DNA of 33,203 nt from the UHGV virus genome UHGV-0162190. One strand, 5' to 3'. The stretch's first letter is position 1. Each line of letters begins with the position of its first letter. Under the pieces are notes generated by a model that was not told the origin of the DNA, ran no database searches, and saw nothing but the letters and a program-made list of their open reading frames with translations. The translations under genes were made by a program, and so were the position numbers. This stretch comes from a virus. Below are positions 14,867 to 29,846 of the stretch, one piece after another.

Positions 14867-14937
14867 TCCTCTAAACATTGAGCGACCAGCACAGCCGCTC
14901 AATGTTTAATTGCGCATCAGCCTCTGCCTGGATAAAA

Positions 14938-24455: not shown

Positions 24456-25256
24456 CTATTTCATCAGTCCTATAAAAGCTGCTGTCATGCTACCCAATGC
24501 ACCAATAGCAGCAAATAACGTTGCCCAAAACATGCTTTTTTGGCTACGAATATTCTCATTATATCGTTGTTCTTCATTATTGAAGTGATTTAACGTATTA
24601 ATTGCTTTTCCAGTGGGCTTATAACCATCTCGAGTCTTTGAAATGTCCCCACTCTCTACAAGGGAATCCAGACATAAGCGAAGTTCTTTTATGAGTCGAG
24701 AATAATCATCATGGTAGATCCATAAACGTCCTGCCACATCATTCATAATTAGAGTCTCACTGAATGGTTTTTCCCCTTGCTGCTCTCGATAAATTCTGAC
24801 AATTGCAGCCAATACCGTCATTACATCGGTTATCTCCTGCTTGCGTTGTCGATACAAATACTTCTCACGACTTAGCTTTTTATTTTGACGATTCGCTATT
24901 CTTCTAAATCTAAGCACATTAAAAAAAGATAAGTCGTCCAATGAGTCAAACTTCAATTCATGCGCATGATAATAATAAATTCCAGAAAAGGAATTTGATG
25001 TAAGTCGTTCTGGTTTAAGAATTGTATCAATATTGAAAGTTTTATTCTGATGATTCCACTTCTTAACCTTTATAATTCCGTTTGAATAACTATCAAAAAG
25101 ATAGTCATTACCCTCGTCATCCTTAATGTAAACGGAATACATATCGTAATGAATGGCACTCTCATACATTAAACTAATTTTGCCATTTTCAGGAGTCTTC
25201 TTTGACTCAAAAACTTTTAGAAACTTTACAACATCAACTTTATTTTTATACCTCAT
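24456..25256 (-). CDS. Hypothetical C-terminally membrane-anchored protein (266 aa); candidate effector of the RT cassette or an independent defence gene
   Basis: AT-rich ORF with an AAGG Shine-Dalgarno. Soluble N-terminal domain of about 240 aa, then a single C-terminal hydrophobic helix (FWATLFAAIGALGSMTAAFIGL). Lies 165 nt downstream of the RT on the same strand. Confidence 0.6.
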   Translation of the reverse strand: MRYKNKVDVVKFLKVFESKKTPENGKISLMYESAIHYDMYSVYIKDDEGNDYLFDSYSNGIIKVKKWNHQNKTFNIDTILKPERLTSNSFSGIYYYHAHELKFDSLDDLSFFNVLRFRRIANRQNKKLSREKYLYRQRKQEITDVMTVLAAIVRIYREQQGEKPFSETLIMNDVAGRLWIYHDDYSRLIKELRLCLDSLVESGDISKTRDGYKPTGKAINTLNHFNNEEQRYNENIRSQKSMFWATLFAAIGALGSMTAAFIGLMK

Positions 25257-25421: not shown

Positions 25422-26372
25422 TTAAACCGATGTATTTGCTTTCAACGTCAATACTTTCGATCTGTAACGTTTTTCAATAACCCCCATTGAATATAAACGA
25501 CCAAATAATTTCTTTGCTGTTCTTGTATCTTTAGCTTGTTCTACATCTTTTATTATTTTCCAAAGCTCTATTTCTCTAGCCATAAGATAATGCTGTTCGT
25601 TCCTAACCTTTAAGCTATCCCCAAATACTATAACTCCTGTCACCAGTTTAGGCTTATCCCCAGCATATAATTTCGTTTTAGTTGGATGCATCACGTGTCC
25701 ATGCTTATTAATAATCTTACGAATCACGCTGCAAAACAATCGATTTACATTATCTCCAGAAAAAGTAAGATCATCGACATAAACTGTCATTTTCACACGA
25801 AACTTCTCACAAAGTTGATTCATTTCATCAAACATTCTGGAATTTGCAAAATATGCTAATGGCATACTAATCCGACTACCCGTTGGCAATCGTTCATGAC
25901 AGGTACATATATGAGATAAAATATCAGCCACATCTGGCGACATTTTCATTATTGAGAAAAAGAAAGAAAATATCATTTCTCTTGTTGTTGACGGAAAAAA
26001 AGATTTAATATCTGTAGTCATCAACTTCTGATGATTGAGATGTGCTTTAGCATTTGTTATGTTAGAGCAACTTTTTTTACCAGAGTGCAAATACTCTGGC
26101 ATAGCTATACGCAATAATAAACTCGCAATACGTGTATGCACTACATCTAATTTTTCTAAAGGCTTTTGTATTTTCCGTATTTTATTTTTTTTAGAAAGCT
26201 GTTCAAAAATAGAGTAATTACCCTCATCCCTCTTCAAAGCTGATAGATCATTGATACTAACGCAGAGCAAGTTAGCCAACTTTTTTTTACTTTTAAGTTT
26301 ATAAAGTGGCGAATCCGTAATAGGATAAGATTTATTTTTAGTTGAAACCTTCAGTTTAATCCTTTTTTTCAT
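25422..26372 (-). CDS. Reverse transcriptase, retron-type (316 aa)
   Basis: Motifs in order: K-rich finger motif (SKKNKIRKIQKP); NAKAH (retron NAxxH) followed by DIKSFFPS; LPTGSRISMPLAYFAN; catalytic YVDDLTFSG; HPTKTKLY; and KLVTGVIV (retron VTG motif). Small size, no maturase or endonuclease domain. ATG overlaps the upstream HTH gene. Confidence 0.88.
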   Translation of the reverse strand: MKKRIKLKVSTKNKSYPITDSPLYKLKSKKKLANLLCVSINDLSALKRDEGNYSIFEQLSKKNKIRKIQKPLEKLDVVHTRIASLLLRIAMPEYLHSGKKSCSNITNAKAHLNHQKLMTTDIKSFFPSTTREMIFSFFFSIMKMSPDVADILSHICTCHERLPTGSRISMPLAYFANSRMFDEMNQLCEKFRVKMTVYVDDLTFSGDNVNRLFCSVIRKIINKHGHVMHPTKTKLYAGDKPKLVTGVIVFGDSLKVRNEQHYLMAREIELWKIIKDVEQAKDTRTAKKLFGRLYSMGVIEKRYRSKVLTLKANTSV

Positions 26373-26658
26373 TTCTTTTACTTACCCACTCTAGTATATC
26401 CAGAACTTTCCCTGCCAGTTTTAAACGTAAACTTTTGGATAACCGTCCTTGTGTCCCTAATGATTCTGAAAAAAAGACTAAAGAGGATACTGGCATGTCG
26501 AAATGGGAAGCATAACGCTGTAAAATATCAATCGACGGCACCCATAGTCCGCTTTCAATCTCTACTATTCTGCTTTTTGGAATACCTAAAGATGATGATA
26601 AGTCAACTATTGATTCTTTATGGTATTGCCTTATTAAACGAAGGGCTTTATGCAACAT
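26356..26658 (-). CDS. XRE-family helix-turn-helix protein (about 100 aa), translationally coupled to the RT
   Basis: HTH signature ...ESIVDLSSSLGIPKSRIVEIESGLWVPSIDILQRYASHF. Start set at the second ATG, which has a GGAG Shine-Dalgarno (the first ATG is at 26670). Its 3' end overlaps the RT start. Confidence 0.75.
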   Translation of the reverse strand: MLHKALRLIRQYHKESIVDLSSSLGIPKSRIVEIESGLWVPSIDILQRYASHFDMPVSSLVFFSESLGTQGRLSKSLRLKLAGKVLDILEWVSKRNEKKD

Positions 26659-26694
26659 AGGCAACTCCATCTTGTTGAAACTAGGGAGGACGCA

Positions 26695-26850
26695 TTACTC
26701 ATCTCCCCCTTCAAAGAAGTCAACTGCGCGAGTGATCCAATAAAGTAGTCTAATAAGCCACTTAATTACACCCCAAGCGTTAGGAGTCTTCTTTTTCCGG
26801 TTTAACTTGTTTTGCGCCTGCTGTTCGTTGGTTACTTTATCATTTTTCAT
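26695..26850 (-). CDS. Possible small protein (51 aa, MKNDKVTNEQQ...) with a hydrophobic C-terminus, upstream of the HTH gene
   Basis: Internal ATG of ORF 26695-26988 preceded by GGAGCAGG. Basic stretch followed by WGVIKWLIRLLYWI. The N-terminal part of the listed 97-aa ORF overlaps structured non-coding-like sequence and is probably not translated. Confidence 0.35.
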   Translation of the reverse strand: MKNDKVTNEQQAQNKLNRKKKTPNAWGVIKWLIRLLYWITRAVDFFEGGDE

Positions 26851-27100
26851 GACCTGCTCCTTATGTCCACGGTGTGCAAACGATATGTCTGCTCCAACAC
26901 CATGGCTCGCCCTCATAAGGATGAGATTGAACAGCACCAGCTCCCTGCTCCACGAACCCTTTGTCGCCCAAAGGGTTCGAATACCCATACGCTATACCGC
27001 TTGAATCAGAGACTCCTGTCGCTGACAGAGGCGTTGCGCGGGGTAAATGTTAGAAAGCATTAGCTTTCCACGGGCAATAAATACCCAATTGATGGCGATT
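26851..27100 (-). ncRNA. Candidate retron non-coding RNA (msr-msd) or structured leader of the RT operon; boundaries approximate
   Basis: Non-coding stretch upstream of the RT operon on the same strand. Perfect 11-bp GC-rich hairpin (CGAACCCTTTG-5 nt-CAAAGGGTTCG, about 26953-26979) plus further short stems (CTGTC-GCT-GACAG about 27015-27027; GAAAGC-ATTA-GCTTTC about 27054-27069). I could not identify a1/a2 flanking repeats by eye. Confidence 0.3.
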
Positions 27101-27292
27101 TATCTCACTAACTAACCAATGATTGAATCATACCAAGTAAACCGTTGTATTTGATCTCTCCTTATATAATTTTTTGTTATTAATCAATATAAATAAATAA
27201 CAAAAAGAAATATAGCTAATTTTCATCCGTCTCATCACAATAAATATCAACAAATCAAGAATATCGTTTGATTATCTAGTCTTTCCAATTCA

Positions 27293-29581
27293 TTAAAATA
27301 AAAACAATGCTTCATCTTCAATTCCCGGCCAAACATCAGCAACCGGATACATGAATTTTTTCCCGTCATAATTTACGGTCGCGCCACGCGCCAGCGCCTC
27401 AAGCTCCCATCGCTGAGGGCTGATACCGTTCTGAGCAAGGTCAACGCGGATACGGGTAATTTGCATTCGTTCCGACCTGGTCAGCCTGGCTGATGGCGCT
27501 ATTTCATGCGGTTTTAACGGGCTTCCGTCTCTTTGCTGACGGTTTGGTGTTCTCAGTCCGTGTTTTAATGCACCCCTGAGCGCCCTCACGACCTCCGGGT
27601 CACTCCATTCGATGACACCGTCATCAACCAGATTAAGCACTGCTGCGGCGTGTTCAGAAGGCGTGGGAGCCGGTGACGAAGTATCACCACCGGTGAGCTT
27701 TCCACAGTTATTGACAGGACTCCGAGGCGCGGCGATGCCGCTTTTTAAAGTCAAAGGCTCAACGACCGGAACTTTCGGCACAATGCGCCAGTCCGTCGTT
27801 CTGGTGATATGAATATGACGCGCGCCGAGATGCGGCGCGTAAATGCCGACCACTCTCTCGACTTCTTCCTCGTACTCGTTAACTTCATCCGACGGACTAC
27901 GGGCAACCCTGACAGTCTGACAATCGCGCGGAACATTTGCCCCACCCTGCGCGCTGATATACAACGCAAAATCACCACTGTCTGCGGCAGCGCGTGCAGC
28001 CTCGACGCGTTCGTCAAACTCATCAGCAATGCTGACGCCGCGAGGCAATTTGCGTAGTTCACGGTAAGCCCCCATTGTCGGCAGGCCAACCGTTTTAAAT
28101 TGCGGAATGCGCCACGTTGATGCCCATGCGGTAACAGCCGCGGCAGTGTCTTTCAGCGGCCTGCCGGTATCGTTATCGAGCTGACCATCCAGTGCATAGC
28201 CATCGATGTTTTTTGAGATGTATTTCGCGATATACCCCGCAGCACCGCCCCGGTTAAGGTGTTTTGCCTGAAAACGGTTTCGCGCAGCTCCTCTTTCGTC
28301 GCCATCCTCTTTGAGCGCGTAGCGACGCATGATTTCAATAATCTGGTTACGCTGGCGTGGATTACAAAAAAGCATCATATGCCAGTGCGGCGTTCCGTCG
28401 TGGTGTGGTTCAACAACACGCAAACCGTAGGCCTGTAAATCATTATCCTTGAATGCCGTGCGCATCAGGCTCCAGATACGGCAGAGATAACGCTGCGCAT
28501 CCTTTGGATTAAATGCCTCATCGTTCCAGCCGTGATTTAGCTGGACGGTTTTACTTTCGCCTTTTCTGACCTGACGTGTCGGGTGATACTTTGACGGCGC
28601 GGTCAGCGTGATAAACATCCCCACATCACCCTCTGCGGCGGCGTAACGCTCAATACCGGCAATGGTGTTCATCAGCTCCATCCGGCGAATTTCAGGATTA
28701 GAAATACTGCCCATCACCTTACTGATAAGGTCGATGCGCTCGCCGGTTTCCCTGTTTTCAAGGTCACACGATTTAAGAAATTCCAGATTTGCCTGGCGGC
28801 GTGCACGCACATCACGAATGGCATGTTTACTGGCATAAGGAGAACGGTCTTTATTGACCTCCCCGACAGCAATCAGTAACGCCTCATGCCAGCGCATACG
28901 CTGGCCTTTAAGCTGATGAGTCCACCACTCATCGTTAAACAGGCGGGCAATGGCAGAATATGCCTGCCTCGTGGTCATCTGTCCTTTACGGTATTTTTTC
29001 CAGTAGAGCGGGGAAATATTGAAAGCACGTGCAGCGCCAGCAACATGACCATAGAGGTGAGCCTGCGCCTCATCCGTAAACAGCGATTCTTTTTCGCCAT
29101 GTGCATCAACCCAGGCATCGCAGAGTTCCTCATACATCATGAAAAGCTGCGATGAGATACGGGCAGCAAACTTTTTCAGCTCCTTGTCATTCATCCCCGG
29201 CAGGCGCGCATAGTGGTCACGCTCTGCCAGAAACAGCAACGACGCGTCGGTGTTCATTTCATGGCGCTGATTAACGCGCTCAATGCGCGGCCATAAACGA
29301 CGCTGAAAAGTGGATGTGAGGAAATAAAACCCGTGCACCGGGCTTTTATTGCGCCGGATGTAGTCATAGCGTGAAGTAAACAGCGAGCGCAAAAAGTAAG
29401 GCAGGCGATTAATCGTGGATAAAACACCTTGCACCTGACGCATCTCGTCACGTGTAAGGGGTCTTTCGCGCCCGACGGCCTCGCGTGGCGCGTTCCATGC
29501 ATAAGCACCGGTAAACGTCTCACCGGTGCCTGCGGCAAATGCTGACGGAGGGACAAAACGCCCGGAGGCTTTAACGGCCAT
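27293..29581 (-). CDS. A: Replication initiator gpA (rolling-circle nickase)
   Basis: ORF 27293-29623 trimmed to the ATG at MAVKASGRF, giving about 762 aa. HUH-type motif (EPHHDGTPHWHMMLF) and catalytic tyrosine region (AGYIAKYISK). Confidence 0.88.
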   Translation of the reverse strand: MAVKASGRFVPPSAFAAGTGETFTGAYAWNAPREAVGRERPLTRDEMRQVQGVLSTINRLPYFLRSLFTSRYDYIRRNKSPVHGFYFLTSTFQRRLWPRIERVNQRHEMNTDASLLFLAERDHYARLPGMNDKELKKFAARISSQLFMMYEELCDAWVDAHGEKESLFTDEAQAHLYGHVAGAARAFNISPLYWKKYRKGQMTTRQAYSAIARLFNDEWWTHQLKGQRMRWHEALLIAVGEVNKDRSPYASKHAIRDVRARRQANLEFLKSCDLENRETGERIDLISKVMGSISNPEIRRMELMNTIAGIERYAAAEGDVGMFITLTAPSKYHPTRQVRKGESKTVQLNHGWNDEAFNPKDAQRYLCRIWSLMRTAFKDNDLQAYGLRVVEPHHDGTPHWHMMLFCNPRQRNQIIEIMRRYALKEDGDERGAARNRFQAKHLNRGGAAGYIAKYISKNIDGYALDGQLDNDTGRPLKDTAAAVTAWASTWRIPQFKTVGLPTMGAYRELRKLPRGVSIADEFDERVEAARAAADSGDFALYISAQGGANVPRDCQTVRVARSPSDEVNEYEEEVERVVGIYAPHLGARHIHITRTTDWRIVPKVPVVEPLTLKSGIAAPRSPVNNCGKLTGGDTSSPAPTPSEHAAAVLNLVDDGVIEWSDPEVVRALRGALKHGLRTPNRQQRDGSPLKPHEIAPSARLTRSERMQITRIRVDLAQNGISPQRWELEALARGATVNYDGKKFMYPVADVWPGIEDEALFLF

Positions 29582-29846
29582 ATGAGCCAAAAGCCTCTGA
29601 ACAACGCCTGCTGAGTTGCTCAACCTGCGCGTTTAAATCAGCAAAAGACTTTGCGCTTCCGGTCAGAATATCGTGATGCATCAGGCCGGAAACGAGCTGG
29701 CTTAATTTCGGGTAATAACCAACCACTGCCAGCCATTCCTGACCGGCGTTTTTACCGCTTTCCGCTCTCTTTTTCTCGTGGAGAATAAACTGAAAGCTGT
29801 CACTGGTAACGACATAACGTTCGCCAATTTCAATACGAATACTCAT
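29571..29846 (-). CDS. Small early protein (91 aa), P2 orf83-equivalent position
   Basis: ORF immediately upstream of A in the early operon. Confidence 0.55.
   Translation of the reverse strand: MSIRIEIGERYVVTSDSFQFILHEKKRAESGKNAGQEWLAVVGYYPKLSQLVSGLMHHDILTGSAKSFADLNAQVEQLSRRCSEAFGSYGR

What the first reader, a model, noticed from the sequence alone, without database searches (positions are those of the whole stretch)
26851..27100. Candidate msr-msd or structured leader upstream of the RT operon
Seen in sequence: a perfect 11-bp GC-rich stem with a 5-nt loop at about 26953-26979 and at least two more short hairpins within 150 nt, in a region with no convincing coding potential. The listed 97-aa ORF is probably translated only from its internal ATG at 26850, if at all. 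A possible promoter for the minus strand lies further upstream (TTGATT about 27182-27187, 15-nt spacer, TATAAG about 27161-27166), but the spacer is short and I have low confidence in it. Inference: this is the likeliest place for the retron ncRNA template. I could not find the long a1/a2 terminal inverted repeats typical of msr-msd by eye, so the element could instead be a riboregulator or the A-gene terminator.
Basis: partly seen in the sequence, partly recalled or inferred. Interest (0 to 1): 0.6.

Follow-up and report, generated by a model that had tools for sequence, protein, structure and literature searches.

The report
Type VI retron hybrid-RNA leader
This stretch is the structured, non-coding front half of a Type VI retron "hybrid RNA" (a reverse-transcription template fused to a translational lock on a small toxin gene) carried by a P2-like prophage of E. 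coli; it is a further member of an anti-phage system first described in 2025-2026 preprints, not a new kind of element.

Summary
A perfect 11-bp hairpin lies at 26979-26953 on the minus strand, with further hairpins around it and no conserved reading frame. Downstream genes score as PADLOC RT_VI (2.5e-106) and HTH_VI (2.5e-31), preceded by a 51-aa small protein (SP). This is the Type VI retron operon ncRNA-SP-HTH-RT.

Alignments of 28-44 homologous loci show compensatory changes in two msr-like hairpins, a long hairpin with a hypervariable tip (msd), and the 11-bp hairpin. Three long-range helices are also supported. One joins the sequence after the hairpin to the sequence after the SP stop codon. 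An 8-bp SD:anti-SD helix is supported too.

The hairpin loop GGGCGA recurs 57 nt downstream, beside the anti-SD. Both copies change together across lineages. This matches the Retron-Vpa2 model, in which msDNA unlocks SP translation.

A 7-bp helix P (27108-27102 with 26927-26921) covaries family-wide and crosses the nested helices. Text searches of the two preprints find no mention of a pseudoknot.

No msDNA or transcript data exist for this locus.

The parts
27161..27187 (-). Putative promoter: -35 TTGATT (27187-27182), 15-nt spacer, -10 TATAAG (27166-27161). Inferred transcription start is about 27155-27153.
   Evidence: Read from the sequence. A TATAAT-like box is conserved at this position in 14 relatives. 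The site lies inside the 25432-27196 block shared with other retron loci. The consensus scan does not report it because the spacer is 15 nt. Inference only.
26665..27154 (-). [quoted passage not shown]
   Evidence: By analogy with the roughly 470-nt Vpa2 hyRNA and the Sen3 RNA-seq interval. Conserved structure spans this interval. The ends are not mapped here.
27102..27108 (-). Helix P, 5' strand (GUGAGAU). It pairs with 26927-26921.
   Evidence: 91.5% of cells pair, against 29-55% when slid; 5 of 7 pairs change on both sides. In about 30 of 36 Type VI loci the best complement sits at the same place, just 5' of the CGCC motif.
27093..27097 (-). Conserved single-stranded CGCCA motif, 4-8 nt after helix P. 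G27096 is a candidate priming G (speculative).
   Evidence: Nearly invariant columns in A2. Same context in distant loci. No function was tested.
27072..27086 (-). msr-like hairpin 1 (GGGUA / UGCCC).
   Evidence: 95% paired, 4 of 5 pairs compensatory. Mean pair probability 0.56-0.78 over 28 independent folds.
27051..27070 (-). msr-like hairpin 2 (UGGAAAGC / GCUUUCUA).
   Evidence: 91% paired, 4 of 8 pairs compensatory. Pair probability 0.71-0.79.
26982..27045 (-). Long hairpin with a conserved base and a hypervariable tip that carries indels. This is the main part of the predicted msd (reverse-transcription template).
   Evidence: Alignment shows a variable-length tip. Base helices are 78-82% paired with compensatory changes. 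It is the positional equivalent of the long stem-loop covered by Vpa2 msDNA.
26953..26979 (-). Its loop carries direct-repeat copy 1 (GGGCGA, 26969-26964). It is the predicted 3' end of the template, and so the 5' hairpin of the msDNA.
   Evidence: Perfect inverted repeat. 9 of 11 pairs are compensatory. The stem sequence differs completely between lineages while the hairpin and loop motif persist. The predicted msDNA folds with this hairpin at its 5' end, z = -5.1.
26941..26952 (-). IR1 (UGGAGCAGGGAG). It abuts the hairpin and pairs with IR2 at 26688-26676.
   Evidence: 93.6% paired; GGGAG:CUCCC, GGGAA:UUCCC and GGGGG:CCCCC variants occur. Pair probability 0.43-0.60.
26929..26936 (-). H6, 5' strand (UGCUGUUC). 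It pairs with SP codons 9-11 at 26826-26819.
   Evidence: 100% paired in 28 sequences and in 43 distinct sequences, with all 8 pairs compensatory.
26921..26927 (-). Helix P, 3' strand (AUCUCAU). It lies one nucleotide after H6 and immediately before the anti-SD.
26914..26921 (-). Anti-SD (UCCUUAUG). It pairs with 26865-26858.
   Evidence: 96.7-98.4% paired, all 8 pairs compensatory. It appears in the minimum-energy fold of most homologues. In the window it is isoenergetic with the minimum-energy fold (-41.6 vs -41.9 kcal/mol).
26906..26913 (-). Internal loop AGGGCGAG, which carries direct-repeat copy 2 (GGGCGA, 26912-26907).
   Evidence: The repeat is shared with the hairpin loop in 38 of 44 loci, and both copies change together: GGACGAA, UGGCGAC, AGCGAA, AGGGG. 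It corresponds to the 7-nt repeats described for Vpa2.
26867..26905 (-). Riboregulator hairpin H8 (26905-26897 with 26875-26867; 26892-26887 with 26881-26876).
   Evidence: 92.5% and 97% paired, all 16 pairs compensatory.
26857..26865 (-). SP ribosome-binding site region CAUAAGGAG (SD AAGGAG at 26862-26857). It is sequestered by the anti-SD.
26695..26850 (-). SP gene, 51 aa, the predicted small toxic effector. It contains the start-codon hairpin (26853-26849 with 26843-26839), the H6 3' strand (26826-26819) and the H9 5' strand (26818-26813).
   Evidence: ORF conserved at this start in all relatives. Residues K15, I39 and F45 match Vpa2 residues that were mutated. Matches phrog_15287. Annotated in RefSeq.
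26676..26694 (-). H9 3' strand (UGCGUC, 26694-26689) and IR2 (CUCCCUaGUUUCA, 26688-26676), directly after the SP stop codon.
   Evidence: H9 is 97% paired with 5 of 6 pairs compensatory; IR1:IR2 is 93.6% paired.
26356..26668 (-). HTH gene with its ribosome-binding site (GGAG, 26668-26665). The likely start is ATG 26658.
   Evidence: PADLOC HTH_VI 2.5e-31. The conserved start in homologues corresponds to M5 of the longest ORF. RefSeq uses 26658.
25422..26372 (-). Retron reverse transcriptase (316 aa), overlapping the end of the HTH gene.
   Evidence: PADLOC RT_VI 2.5e-106. Pfam RVT_1. YVDD, NAxxH and VTG are invariant in the alignment.

Best explanation
The interval 26851-27100, extended 5' to about 27154, is the non-coding part of the hybrid RNA of a Type VI retron. 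The retron sits in the gene A-portal slot of a P2-like prophage.

Reading 5' to 3' on the minus strand, the RNA contains:
- a conserved leader;
- two msr-like hairpins;
- the msd template, made of a long variable hairpin plus the 11-bp hairpin, about 93 nt in all;
- a 23-nt 'hub' strand (26936-26914).

Three consecutive segments of the hub pair with SP codons 9-11 (H6), with the 5' leader (helix P) and with the SP Shine-Dalgarno sequence (anti-SD). A further repeat (IR1:IR2) clamps the base of the 11-bp hairpin to the sequence just after the SP stop codon. The whole SP gene is therefore folded into the RNA.

Inferred mechanism, by homology with Retron-Vpa2:
1. The RT and HTH proteins bind this RNA.
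2. SP is not translated, because its SD and start codon are paired.
3. Reverse transcription of the msd is kept low.
4. On infection (phage recombination proteins, RecBCD inhibition), msDNA accumulates.
5. The loop of the msDNA's 5' hairpin (5'-TCGCCC-3') pairs with the second GGGCGA copy, in the internal loop next to the SD:anti-SD helix.
6. The SD is released and the small hydrophobic SP is made, which stops growth of the infected cell.

Shown here: the gene content, the RNA architecture and its covariation, and the linked evolution of the two repeats. Inferred: the transcript ends, msDNA synthesis and its limits, the trigger, and SP toxicity.
For: - Operon identity: RT_VI and HTH_VI, and the conserved ncRNA-SP-HTH-RT order in more than 60 loci.
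- RT relatedness: the RT is 53% identical to the RT of a V. parahaemolyticus locus (L119/L120). The SP of that locus carries exactly the residues named for Vpa2: K15, I39, F43, F45.
- Structure on 28 sequences: 84 pairs, 88% paired against 39-48% slid, 52 pairs compensatory.
- Structure on 44 sequences: arm-2 covariance model hits at the same relative place; 94.6% paired, 36 of 37 pairs compensatory.
- Independent folding of 28 sequences converges on the same helices.
- Template features: the tip of the long hairpin is hypervariable with indels. In the Vpa2-like locus, long hairpin (51 nt) + linker (4 nt) + small hairpin (27 nt) = 82 nt. This fits the published 86-nt msDNA, whose 5' 23 nt are required for derepression.
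- The two repeat copies change in concert across lineages, matching the published hypothesis.
- The three-arm description of the Vpa2 hyRNA is reproduced by H6, H9 and IR1:IR2.
Against: - There are no transcript, msDNA or phenotype data for this locus.
- The related E. coli system Retron-Eco12 gave no detectable msDNA at baseline.
- A Type VI retron of another lineage (Sen3) makes ssDNA and SP constitutively and is controlled post-translationally, so the Vpa2 mechanism may not be general.
- The priming nucleotide cannot be identified. No conserved G follows IR2. No canonical long a1/a2 exists. Rfam retron models give no hit even at E <= 10.
- In the window itself the SD:anti-SD conformer is only isoenergetic with an alternative.
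- Helix P is not predicted thermodynamically.
- The covariance-model alignment is fitted to the structure, which inflates pair counts somewhat.
Confidence: 0.82

Rival explanations
1. Same element, different logic (Sen3-like). The RNA is a retron template, but ssDNA and SP are made constitutively. HTH neutralises SP as a protein antitoxin, and RecBCD inhibition triggers release. In this reading the RNA structure is a scaffold rather than a translational switch.
For: This was reported for Retron-Sen3. The arm-2 covariance model also hits loci with the other SP type (FWQALK-type, e.g. Yersinia L010 and L107), so the shared RNA design does not by itself tell the two mechanisms apart. In the window the SD-sequestered fold is not clearly more stable than the alternative.
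Against: The window's SP and the RT belong with the Vpa2-like group: 53-58% RT identity, against about 44% for the Yersinia-type loci. SD:anti-SD and the paired repeats show strong compensatory and concerted change, which argues for selection on a switch. Eco12 from E. coli gave no baseline msDNA.
Confidence: 0.15
2. Only a structured 5' UTR or cis-regulatory leader of the SP-HTH-RT mRNA, and not a reverse-transcription template.
For: No msDNA data exist for this locus. Type VI retrons gave no visible msDNA in a census. Rfam retron families give no hit.
Against: An RT with an intact YVDD motif is co-inherited with the RNA as one 1.77-kb module. The long hairpin has the conserved base and hypervariable tip typical of an msd. 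In Vpa2, msDNA maps to the homologous hairpins and is RT-dependent. Concerted change of the two direct (not inverted) repeats makes sense only if a complementary copy is made.
Confidence: 0.03
3. Intrinsic terminator of phage gene A, or part of a real 97-aa protein gene.
For: A strong hairpin lies downstream of gene A. An ORF of 97 aa exists, and PHROGs holds a 97-aa family (phrog_5826) whose C-terminal half matches SP.
Against: The hairpin is 314 nt past the gene A stop, has no U-tract, and no terminator-like site was found. The element occurs without gene A in Vibrio and Dickeya loci. The reading frame upstream of ATG 26850 is broken or shifted in relatives, while base pairing is kept. RefSeq annotates only the 51-aa product.
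Confidence: 0.01

Closest known systems
Retron-Vpa2 hyRNA (Type VI retron, Vibrio parahaemolyticus; bioRxiv 10.1101/2025.10.22.683967)
   Same: - Operon order is ncRNA-SP-HTH-RT.
- One RNA holds the msr-msd and the SP coding sequence.
- Three arms meet at a node closed by a repeat after the SP stop codon.
- The SD and start codon lie in stem-loops.
- Direct repeats occur in the msd hairpin loop and in the riboregulator loop.
- The SP has K15, I39 and F45 at the same positions.
   Different: - The RT is only about 53% identical.
- The repeat is GGGCGA here and GGACGAA in the Vpa2-like locus.
- The predicted msd is about 93 nt here, against 86 nt.
- The genomic context differs: a P2-like prophage hotspot here, against a chromosomal island next to hipA/rpoD.
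- Nothing has been tested experimentally here.
- Helix P does not turn up in text searches of the paper.
Retron-Eco12 (Type VI retron from E. coli, same preprint)
   Same: The host species and the retron type match. It defends against lambda vir without detectable baseline msDNA. The window could be this very system or its roughly 82-85% identical sibling, which is found in about 90 complete E. coli genomes.
   Different: Its sequence is not in the held text or supplements, so identity could not be tested.
Retron-Sen3 and the cl2075 lineage (bioRxiv 10.64898/2026.04.27.721009)
   Same: - It is a Type VI SP-HTH-RT module.
- The ncRNA lies within about 280 nt of the SP start.
- It has a long variable stem-loop.
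- It has an IR1-IR2 pairing in which IR2 follows the SP stop codon.
- RNA structure lies inside the SP coding sequence.
   Different: - The SP family differs. The Sen3-related Yersinia-type loci have an FWQALK motif, while the window has NEQQAQ.
- In Sen3 the SP ribosome-binding site is said to lie in the basal stem formed by the terminal repeats. Here it pairs with an internal anti-SD.
- Sen3 makes ssDNA constitutively and is regulated post-translationally.
Canonical retron msr-msd (e.g. Retron-Eco1/Ec86; Rfam msr family)
   Same: An RT-linked structured RNA with msr-type hairpins followed by a long msd hairpin. A duplex abuts the 3' end of the template.
   Different: - No long terminal a1/a2.
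- The strand that abuts the template (IR2) comes from about 265 nt downstream, beyond an embedded gene.
- No conserved G follows it.
- There is no Rfam hit.
- The msDNA is proposed to act as an activator, not an antitoxin.
mRNA-embedded small-toxin switches (type I toxin-antitoxin mRNAs such as hok or tisB; engineered toehold riboregulators). This comparison rests on my own knowledge.
   Same: A small hydrophobic toxin whose SD is hidden by long-range intramolecular pairing. It is released by a structural change, nucleated at an exposed loop next to the SD helix.
   Different: The proposed trigger is a reverse-transcribed DNA copy of another part of the same RNA. It is not RNA processing or a trans RNA.

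Membership tests
Type VI retron (Mestre 2020 classification; PADLOC) | RT of the Type VI clade with retron RT motifs (YxDD, NAxxH, VTG) | tested here: met
   PADLOC RT_VI E = 2.5e-106, far ahead of other retron types (next best 6.6e-45). Y198-V-D-D, N107-A..H111 and V244-T-G are conserved in 30 homologues.
Type VI retron (Mestre 2020 classification; PADLOC) | Small Cro/C1-type HTH gene immediately upstream of, and overlapping, the RT gene | tested here: met
   PADLOC HTH_VI 2.5e-31. The HTH gene ends at 26356 and the RT gene starts at 26372, a 17-nt overlap.
Type VI retron (Mestre 2020 classification; PADLOC) | Small protein (SP) ORF between the ncRNA and the HTH gene, with a basic N-terminus and a hydrophobic C-terminal helix | tested here: met
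   The 51-aa ORF at 26850-26695 is conserved in position and pattern in relatives. Toxicity was not tested.
Type VI retron hybrid RNA (hyRNA; Zhang et al. 2025) | [quoted passage not shown] | tested here: met
   H6, H9 and IR1:IR2 are 94-100% paired with compensatory changes. Folding of 28 sequences agrees.
Type VI retron hybrid RNA (hyRNA; Zhang et al. 2025) | SD and start codon sequestered in stem-loops | tested here: met
   The SD:anti-SD helix is 97-98% paired with 8 of 8 pairs compensatory. The start-codon hairpin is 77-87% paired. In the window this conformer is isoenergetic with the minimum-energy fold.
Type VI retron hybrid RNA (hyRNA; Zhang et al. 2025) | Conserved direct repeats of about 7 nt, one in an msd loop and one in the riboregulator loop | tested here: met
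   GGGCGA occurs at 26969-26964 and at 26912-26907. It is shared in 38 of 44 loci with concerted changes.
Type VI retron hybrid RNA (hyRNA; Zhang et al. 2025) | A single abundant transcript of about 470 nt covering the ncRNA and SP; RT-dependent msDNA from the long hairpin; msDNA-dependent SP translation | not testable with these tools
   This needs RNA-seq, ssDNA detection and reporter assays.
Canonical retron msr-msd | Long terminal inverted repeats a1/a2 flanking the msr-msd | tested here: not met
   There is no terminal repeat of canonical length. Instead there are a 7-bp helix P and a 12-bp IR1:IR2 whose second arm lies beyond the SP gene.
Canonical retron msr-msd | Conserved branching G at the inner end of a1 | tested here: inconclusive
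   No conserved G follows IR2; the next base is A in most loci. A nearly invariant G (27096, in CGCCA) lies 5 nt after helix P in the window, and 4-8 nt after it across loci. The branch point cannot be assigned from sequence.
Canonical retron msr-msd | Match to Rfam retron RNA models | tested here: not met
   No hit at gathering score over the whole window, nor at E <= 10 over 26600-27300.

The most novel reading that the evidence does not exclude
The published nested models of the Type VI hyRNA may be incomplete. Helix P (27108-27102 with 26927-26921) covaries across the whole family and crosses H6 and IR1:IR2.

Together with H6, from which it is separated by a single nucleotide, P would form an H-type pseudoknot. 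One continuous 23-nt hub strand (26936-26914) would then be held by three partners: the SP coding sequence, the 5' leader and the SD.

P would be the true counterpart of a1/a2. It brackets the msr-msd and places the conserved CGCCA motif, with G27096, near the core. It would physically couple the template domain to the translational lock. Alternatively, priming is non-canonical, from the strand IR2, which abuts the template end and has no conserved G after it.
Probability: 0.3. Interest if true: 0.6.

Novelty: new member of a known kind. Interest (0 to 1): 0.4.

Why it matters
Type VI retrons are the one retron group in which the reverse-transcribed DNA is proposed to switch a toxin on rather than hold it off. 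Only two or three members have been studied, all in preprints.

This locus adds an E. coli prophage-borne member. The same or a closely related module is present in about 100 of 5,426 complete E. coli genomes. It is absent from Rfam and is unannotated in RefSeq apart from its proteins.

The comparative analysis here gives independent, sequence-only support for three parts of the published design: the SD lock, the SP gene folded into the RNA, and the paired repeats that co-vary. It also points to an extra conserved long-range helix that could be tested by mutation.

For annotation pipelines, the result shows two things. The 97-aa ORF is an over-call. And a covariance model of arm 2 finds the element across distant Type VI lineages.

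Tried and rejected
- **Rfam scans.** Gathering scan over the whole window and E <= 10 over 26600-27300: no retron family, only a chance snoRNA hit.
- **Canonical terminal a1/a2.** No segment of the 5' leader is complementary to IR1. Averaging pair probabilities over 28 folds gave no consistent partner for the leader.
- **CCAUC (27095-27091) with GAUGG (26671-26667, at the HTH ribosome-binding site).** It appears in the minimum-energy fold but is only 62% paired across homologues. Not adopted.
- **Local hairpin CUCAU/AUGAG (26925-26912).** It is 75% paired. It is superseded by helix P and SD:anti-SD, which use the same bases and covary better.
- **5-bp stem-loop 27129-27117.** This is a possible counterpart of the Sen3 'stem-loop upstream of the 5' repeat'. 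Only 3-5 bp are kept in close relatives (read). Left as uncertain.
- **Pairing of the 5' UAUGAU with the SP start region.** Not conserved in L101 or L001. Rejected.
- **Helix P by thermodynamics.** It does not form in minimum-energy folds of nascent or full transcripts. Forcing it costs 6.4 kcal/mol in a nested model. Its support is comparative only.
- **Terminator and promoter scan.** No terminator was found.
- **Identity with Retron-Eco12.** No sequence or accession is given in the paper or its supplements.
- **mafft-qinsi structural alignment.** Not available. MAFFT plus a covariance model were used instead.
- **Neighbouring 266-aa ORF.** Pfam, PADLOC and NCBIfam gave nothing.
Full report
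**What is at the coordinates.** All positions below are on the minus strand. Arms 26979-26969 (CGAACCCUUUG) and 26963-26953 (CAAAGGGUUCG) form a perfect 11-bp stem around the loop GGCGA. The stem is 55% G+C. Only one other perfect hairpin with arms of at least 11 nt and a short loop exists in the 33-kb window. Further hairpins lie at 27086-27072, 27070-27051, 27045-26982 and 26905-26867. The region folds far better than shuffled sequence: z = -5.85 for 27200-26840 and z = -4.0 for 27100-26941.

**Genomic setting.** The window is a P2-like prophage, 100% identical over the tested 2.9 kb to E. coli 65COLEC. The element lies between replication gene A (27293-29623, Pfam Phage_GPA) and the portal and terminase genes. 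Downstream on the same strand are three genes:
- a 51-aa ORF (26850-26695);
- an HTH gene (PADLOC HTH_VI, 2.5e-31);
- a 316-aa reverse transcriptase (PADLOC RT_VI, 2.5e-106; next-best retron type 6.6e-45).

This is the Type VI retron operon. Nucleotide homology to other retron-bearing prophages spans 25432-27196 and stops there. The RNA region, its presumed promoter and the three genes therefore travel as one 1.77-kb module. The downstream 266-aa ORF is not part of it.

**What is already known.** Two preprints describe this type.
- Zhang et al. (10.1101/2025.10.22.683967) show that Retron-Vpa2 makes a 'hybrid RNA' of about 470 nt. It holds the msr-msd and the coding sequence of a small toxic protein (SP). 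It has three arms at a central node closed by a repeat after the SP gene. The SD and start codon sit in stem-loops. There is a 7-nt direct repeat in an msd loop and in the riboregulator loop. msDNA (63 nt, or 86 nt with a 5' stem-loop) accumulates only on triggering and is needed to translate SP.
- Garcia-Rodriguez et al. (10.64898/2026.04.27.721009) describe Retron-Sen3, from another lineage. It has a similar RNA frame but constitutive ssDNA and post-translational control.

**Comparative test.** I collected 126 loci around RT homologues. One of them (L119/L120, V. parahaemolyticus) encodes an SP with K15, I39, F43 and F45, exactly the residues named for Vpa2. It is therefore Vpa2 or nearly so. 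Its RT is 53% identical to the window's. The window's SP has K15, I39 and F45 at the same positions.

A MAFFT alignment of 28 non-redundant regions (A2) was scored against a structure derived from the window's fold. Overall, 88% of cells pair against 39-48% for slid controls, and 52 of 84 pairs change on both sides.

| Helix | Cells paired | Pairs changed on both sides |
|---|---|---|
| msr-like hairpin 1 | 95% | 4/5 |
| msr-like hairpin 2 | 91% | 4/8 |
| Base of the long hairpin | 78-82% | 5/9 |
| 11-bp hairpin | 85% | 9/11 |
| IR1:IR2 (26952-26941 with 26688-26676) | 93.6% | 3/12 |
| H6 (26936-26929 with SP codons 9-11, 26826-26819) | 100% | 3/8 |
| H9 (26818-26813 with 26694-26689) | 97% | 5/6 |

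Folding each of the 28 sequences on its own and averaging pair probabilities recovers the same helices. The tip of the long hairpin is hypervariable and differs in length, as expected of an msd.

**The translational lock.** Most homologues fold so that UCCUUAUG (26921-26914) pairs with CAUAAGGA (26865-26858), the SP Shine-Dalgarno region. This helix encloses an internal loop (AGGGCGAG) and a two-tier hairpin. The start codon sits in its own small hairpin. In the window this conformer is isoenergetic with the minimum-energy fold (-41.6 against -41.9 kcal/mol). A covariance model of this arm (R1) hits 44 loci at the same relative position, including lineages with a different SP family. On that alignment 94.6% of cells pair and 36 of 37 pairs show compensatory change, including all 8 SD:anti-SD pairs. 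That alignment is fitted to the model, which inflates counts, but the slid controls stay near 40%.

It is the family hallmark. Its stem sequence differs completely between lineages while the hairpin persists. Its loop shares 5-7 nt with the riboregulator internal loop in 38 of 44 loci. The loop repeat starts 31-36 nt before arm 2 begins. The two copies change together:
- GGGCGA in most loci;
- GGACGAA in the Vpa2-like locus;
- UGGCGAC in Yersinia-type loci;
- AGCGAA, AGGCGA, UUGGCGA and AGGGG elsewhere.

Concerted change of direct repeats is what one expects if a complementary DNA copy of one repeat has to pair with the other. This is the published hypothesis. In the Vpa2-like locus, long hairpin (51 nt) + AAUU + small hairpin (27 nt) = 82 nt. 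That fits the reported 86-nt msDNA, whose 5' 23 nt are essential. By position, the window's msd is about 27047-26953. Its DNA complement folds into a 5' 11-bp hairpin plus a long hairpin (z = -5.1).

**Why no a1/a2 was seen.** The duplex that abuts the template end is IR1:IR2, and IR2 lies about 265 nt downstream, after the SP stop codon. I also found a 7-bp helix P: GUGAGAU (27108-27102) with AUCUCAU (26927-26921). It is 91.5% paired against 29-55% slid, and 5 of 7 pairs are compensatory. In about 30 of 36 Type VI loci, the best complement of the heptamer after H6 lies 150-220 nt upstream. It always sits just 5' of an A/U spacer plus CGCC(A). The pair types are GAGAU:AUCUC, GGGAU:AUCCC, AGGAU:AUCCU, GAGAG:CUCUC and GGGAG:CUCCC.

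P crosses H6 and IR1:IR2. With H6, one nucleotide away, it would make an H-type pseudoknot. The strand 26936-26914 would then pair in three consecutive blocks with the SP coding sequence, the leader and the SD. Nested thermodynamic folding does not predict P. Neither preprint's text mentions a pseudoknot. Their figures, which I cannot see, might still show the pairing.

**What stays open.**
- The priming nucleotide cannot be assigned. The base after IR2 is usually A, and no conserved G is adjacent. A nearly invariant G (27096) lies 5 nt after P in the window, and 4-8 nt after it across loci.
- The promoter is an inference. The consensus scan does not report it.
- No terminator-like site exists between gene A and SP.
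- Whether this retron behaves like Vpa2 or like Sen3 cannot be decided from sequence. I favour Vpa2 because of RT and SP relatedness and the strongly constrained switch.
- I could not establish whether this locus is Retron-Eco12, because its sequence is not in the held text.

**Coding potential.** The 97-aa ORF is an over-call. Upstream of ATG 26850 the frame is lost or shifted in relatives while pairing is preserved. RefSeq annotates only the 51-aa product. PHROGs holds both a 51-aa family and a 97-aa family whose C-terminal half is SP.

**Verdict.** The region is the msr-msd plus riboregulator half of a Type VI retron hybrid RNA. It is a new member of a known, recently described kind, with moderate interest (0.4). 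The main added value is independent covariation support for the published design, plus a conserved extra helix worth testing.

Noticed in passing
window 24456-25256 (-): A 266-aa ORF lies directly downstream of the RT but outside the block shared with other retron loci. It has no Pfam, PADLOC or NCBIfam hit and matches only phrog_7611 (unknown function). In Yersinia and Serratia prophages the same slot holds different genes (a 246-aa ORF; a 277-aa HNH protein). It looks like separate hotspot cargo.
   Followed up: partly
window 26658-26670 (-): The longest HTH ORF starts at 26670, but the start conserved across about 60 homologues corresponds to ATG 26658 (M5). GGAG at 26668-26665 would be its ribosome-binding site. 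RefSeq uses 26658.
   Followed up: yes
window 26695-26988 (-): PHROGs contains a 97-aa family (phrog_5826) whose residues 47-97 match SP. The over-long ORF that reads through the ncRNA has therefore been annotated as a protein in some phage records.
   Followed up: partly
window 25432-27196; L121, L123: The retron module has sharp homology boundaries. It occupies the same gene A-portal slot in E. coli, Klebsiella, Yersinia and Serratia P2-like prophages. The Vibrio, Dickeya, Providencia and Aeromonas homologues sit in other contexts, for example next to hipA, QatB/QueC/TatD genes, or a hok gene.
   Followed up: partly
window about 29620 onward (-), upstream of gene A: RefSeq annotates a phosphoadenosine phosphosulfate (PAPS) reductase family protein immediately upstream of, and overlapping, gene A in the identical E. 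coli 65COLEC prophage. It is possibly a DNA-modification or defence-related accessory gene.
   Followed up: no
window 14872-14908: The only other perfect hairpin of comparable size in the window: 13-nt arms (TAAACATTGAGCG / CGCTCAATGTTTA) with an 11-nt loop.
   Followed up: no
L063 (Staphylococcus nepalensis), L055, L064-L068, L073-L074 (Firmicutes and Actinobacteria MAGs): RT_VI-like RT plus HTH loci occur well outside Proteobacteria. In L063 a weak arm-2 model hit (E = 0.37) still shows a small hairpin whose loop (AGGGG) is repeated in the putative riboregulator loop. The design may therefore be very widespread.
   Followed up: partly
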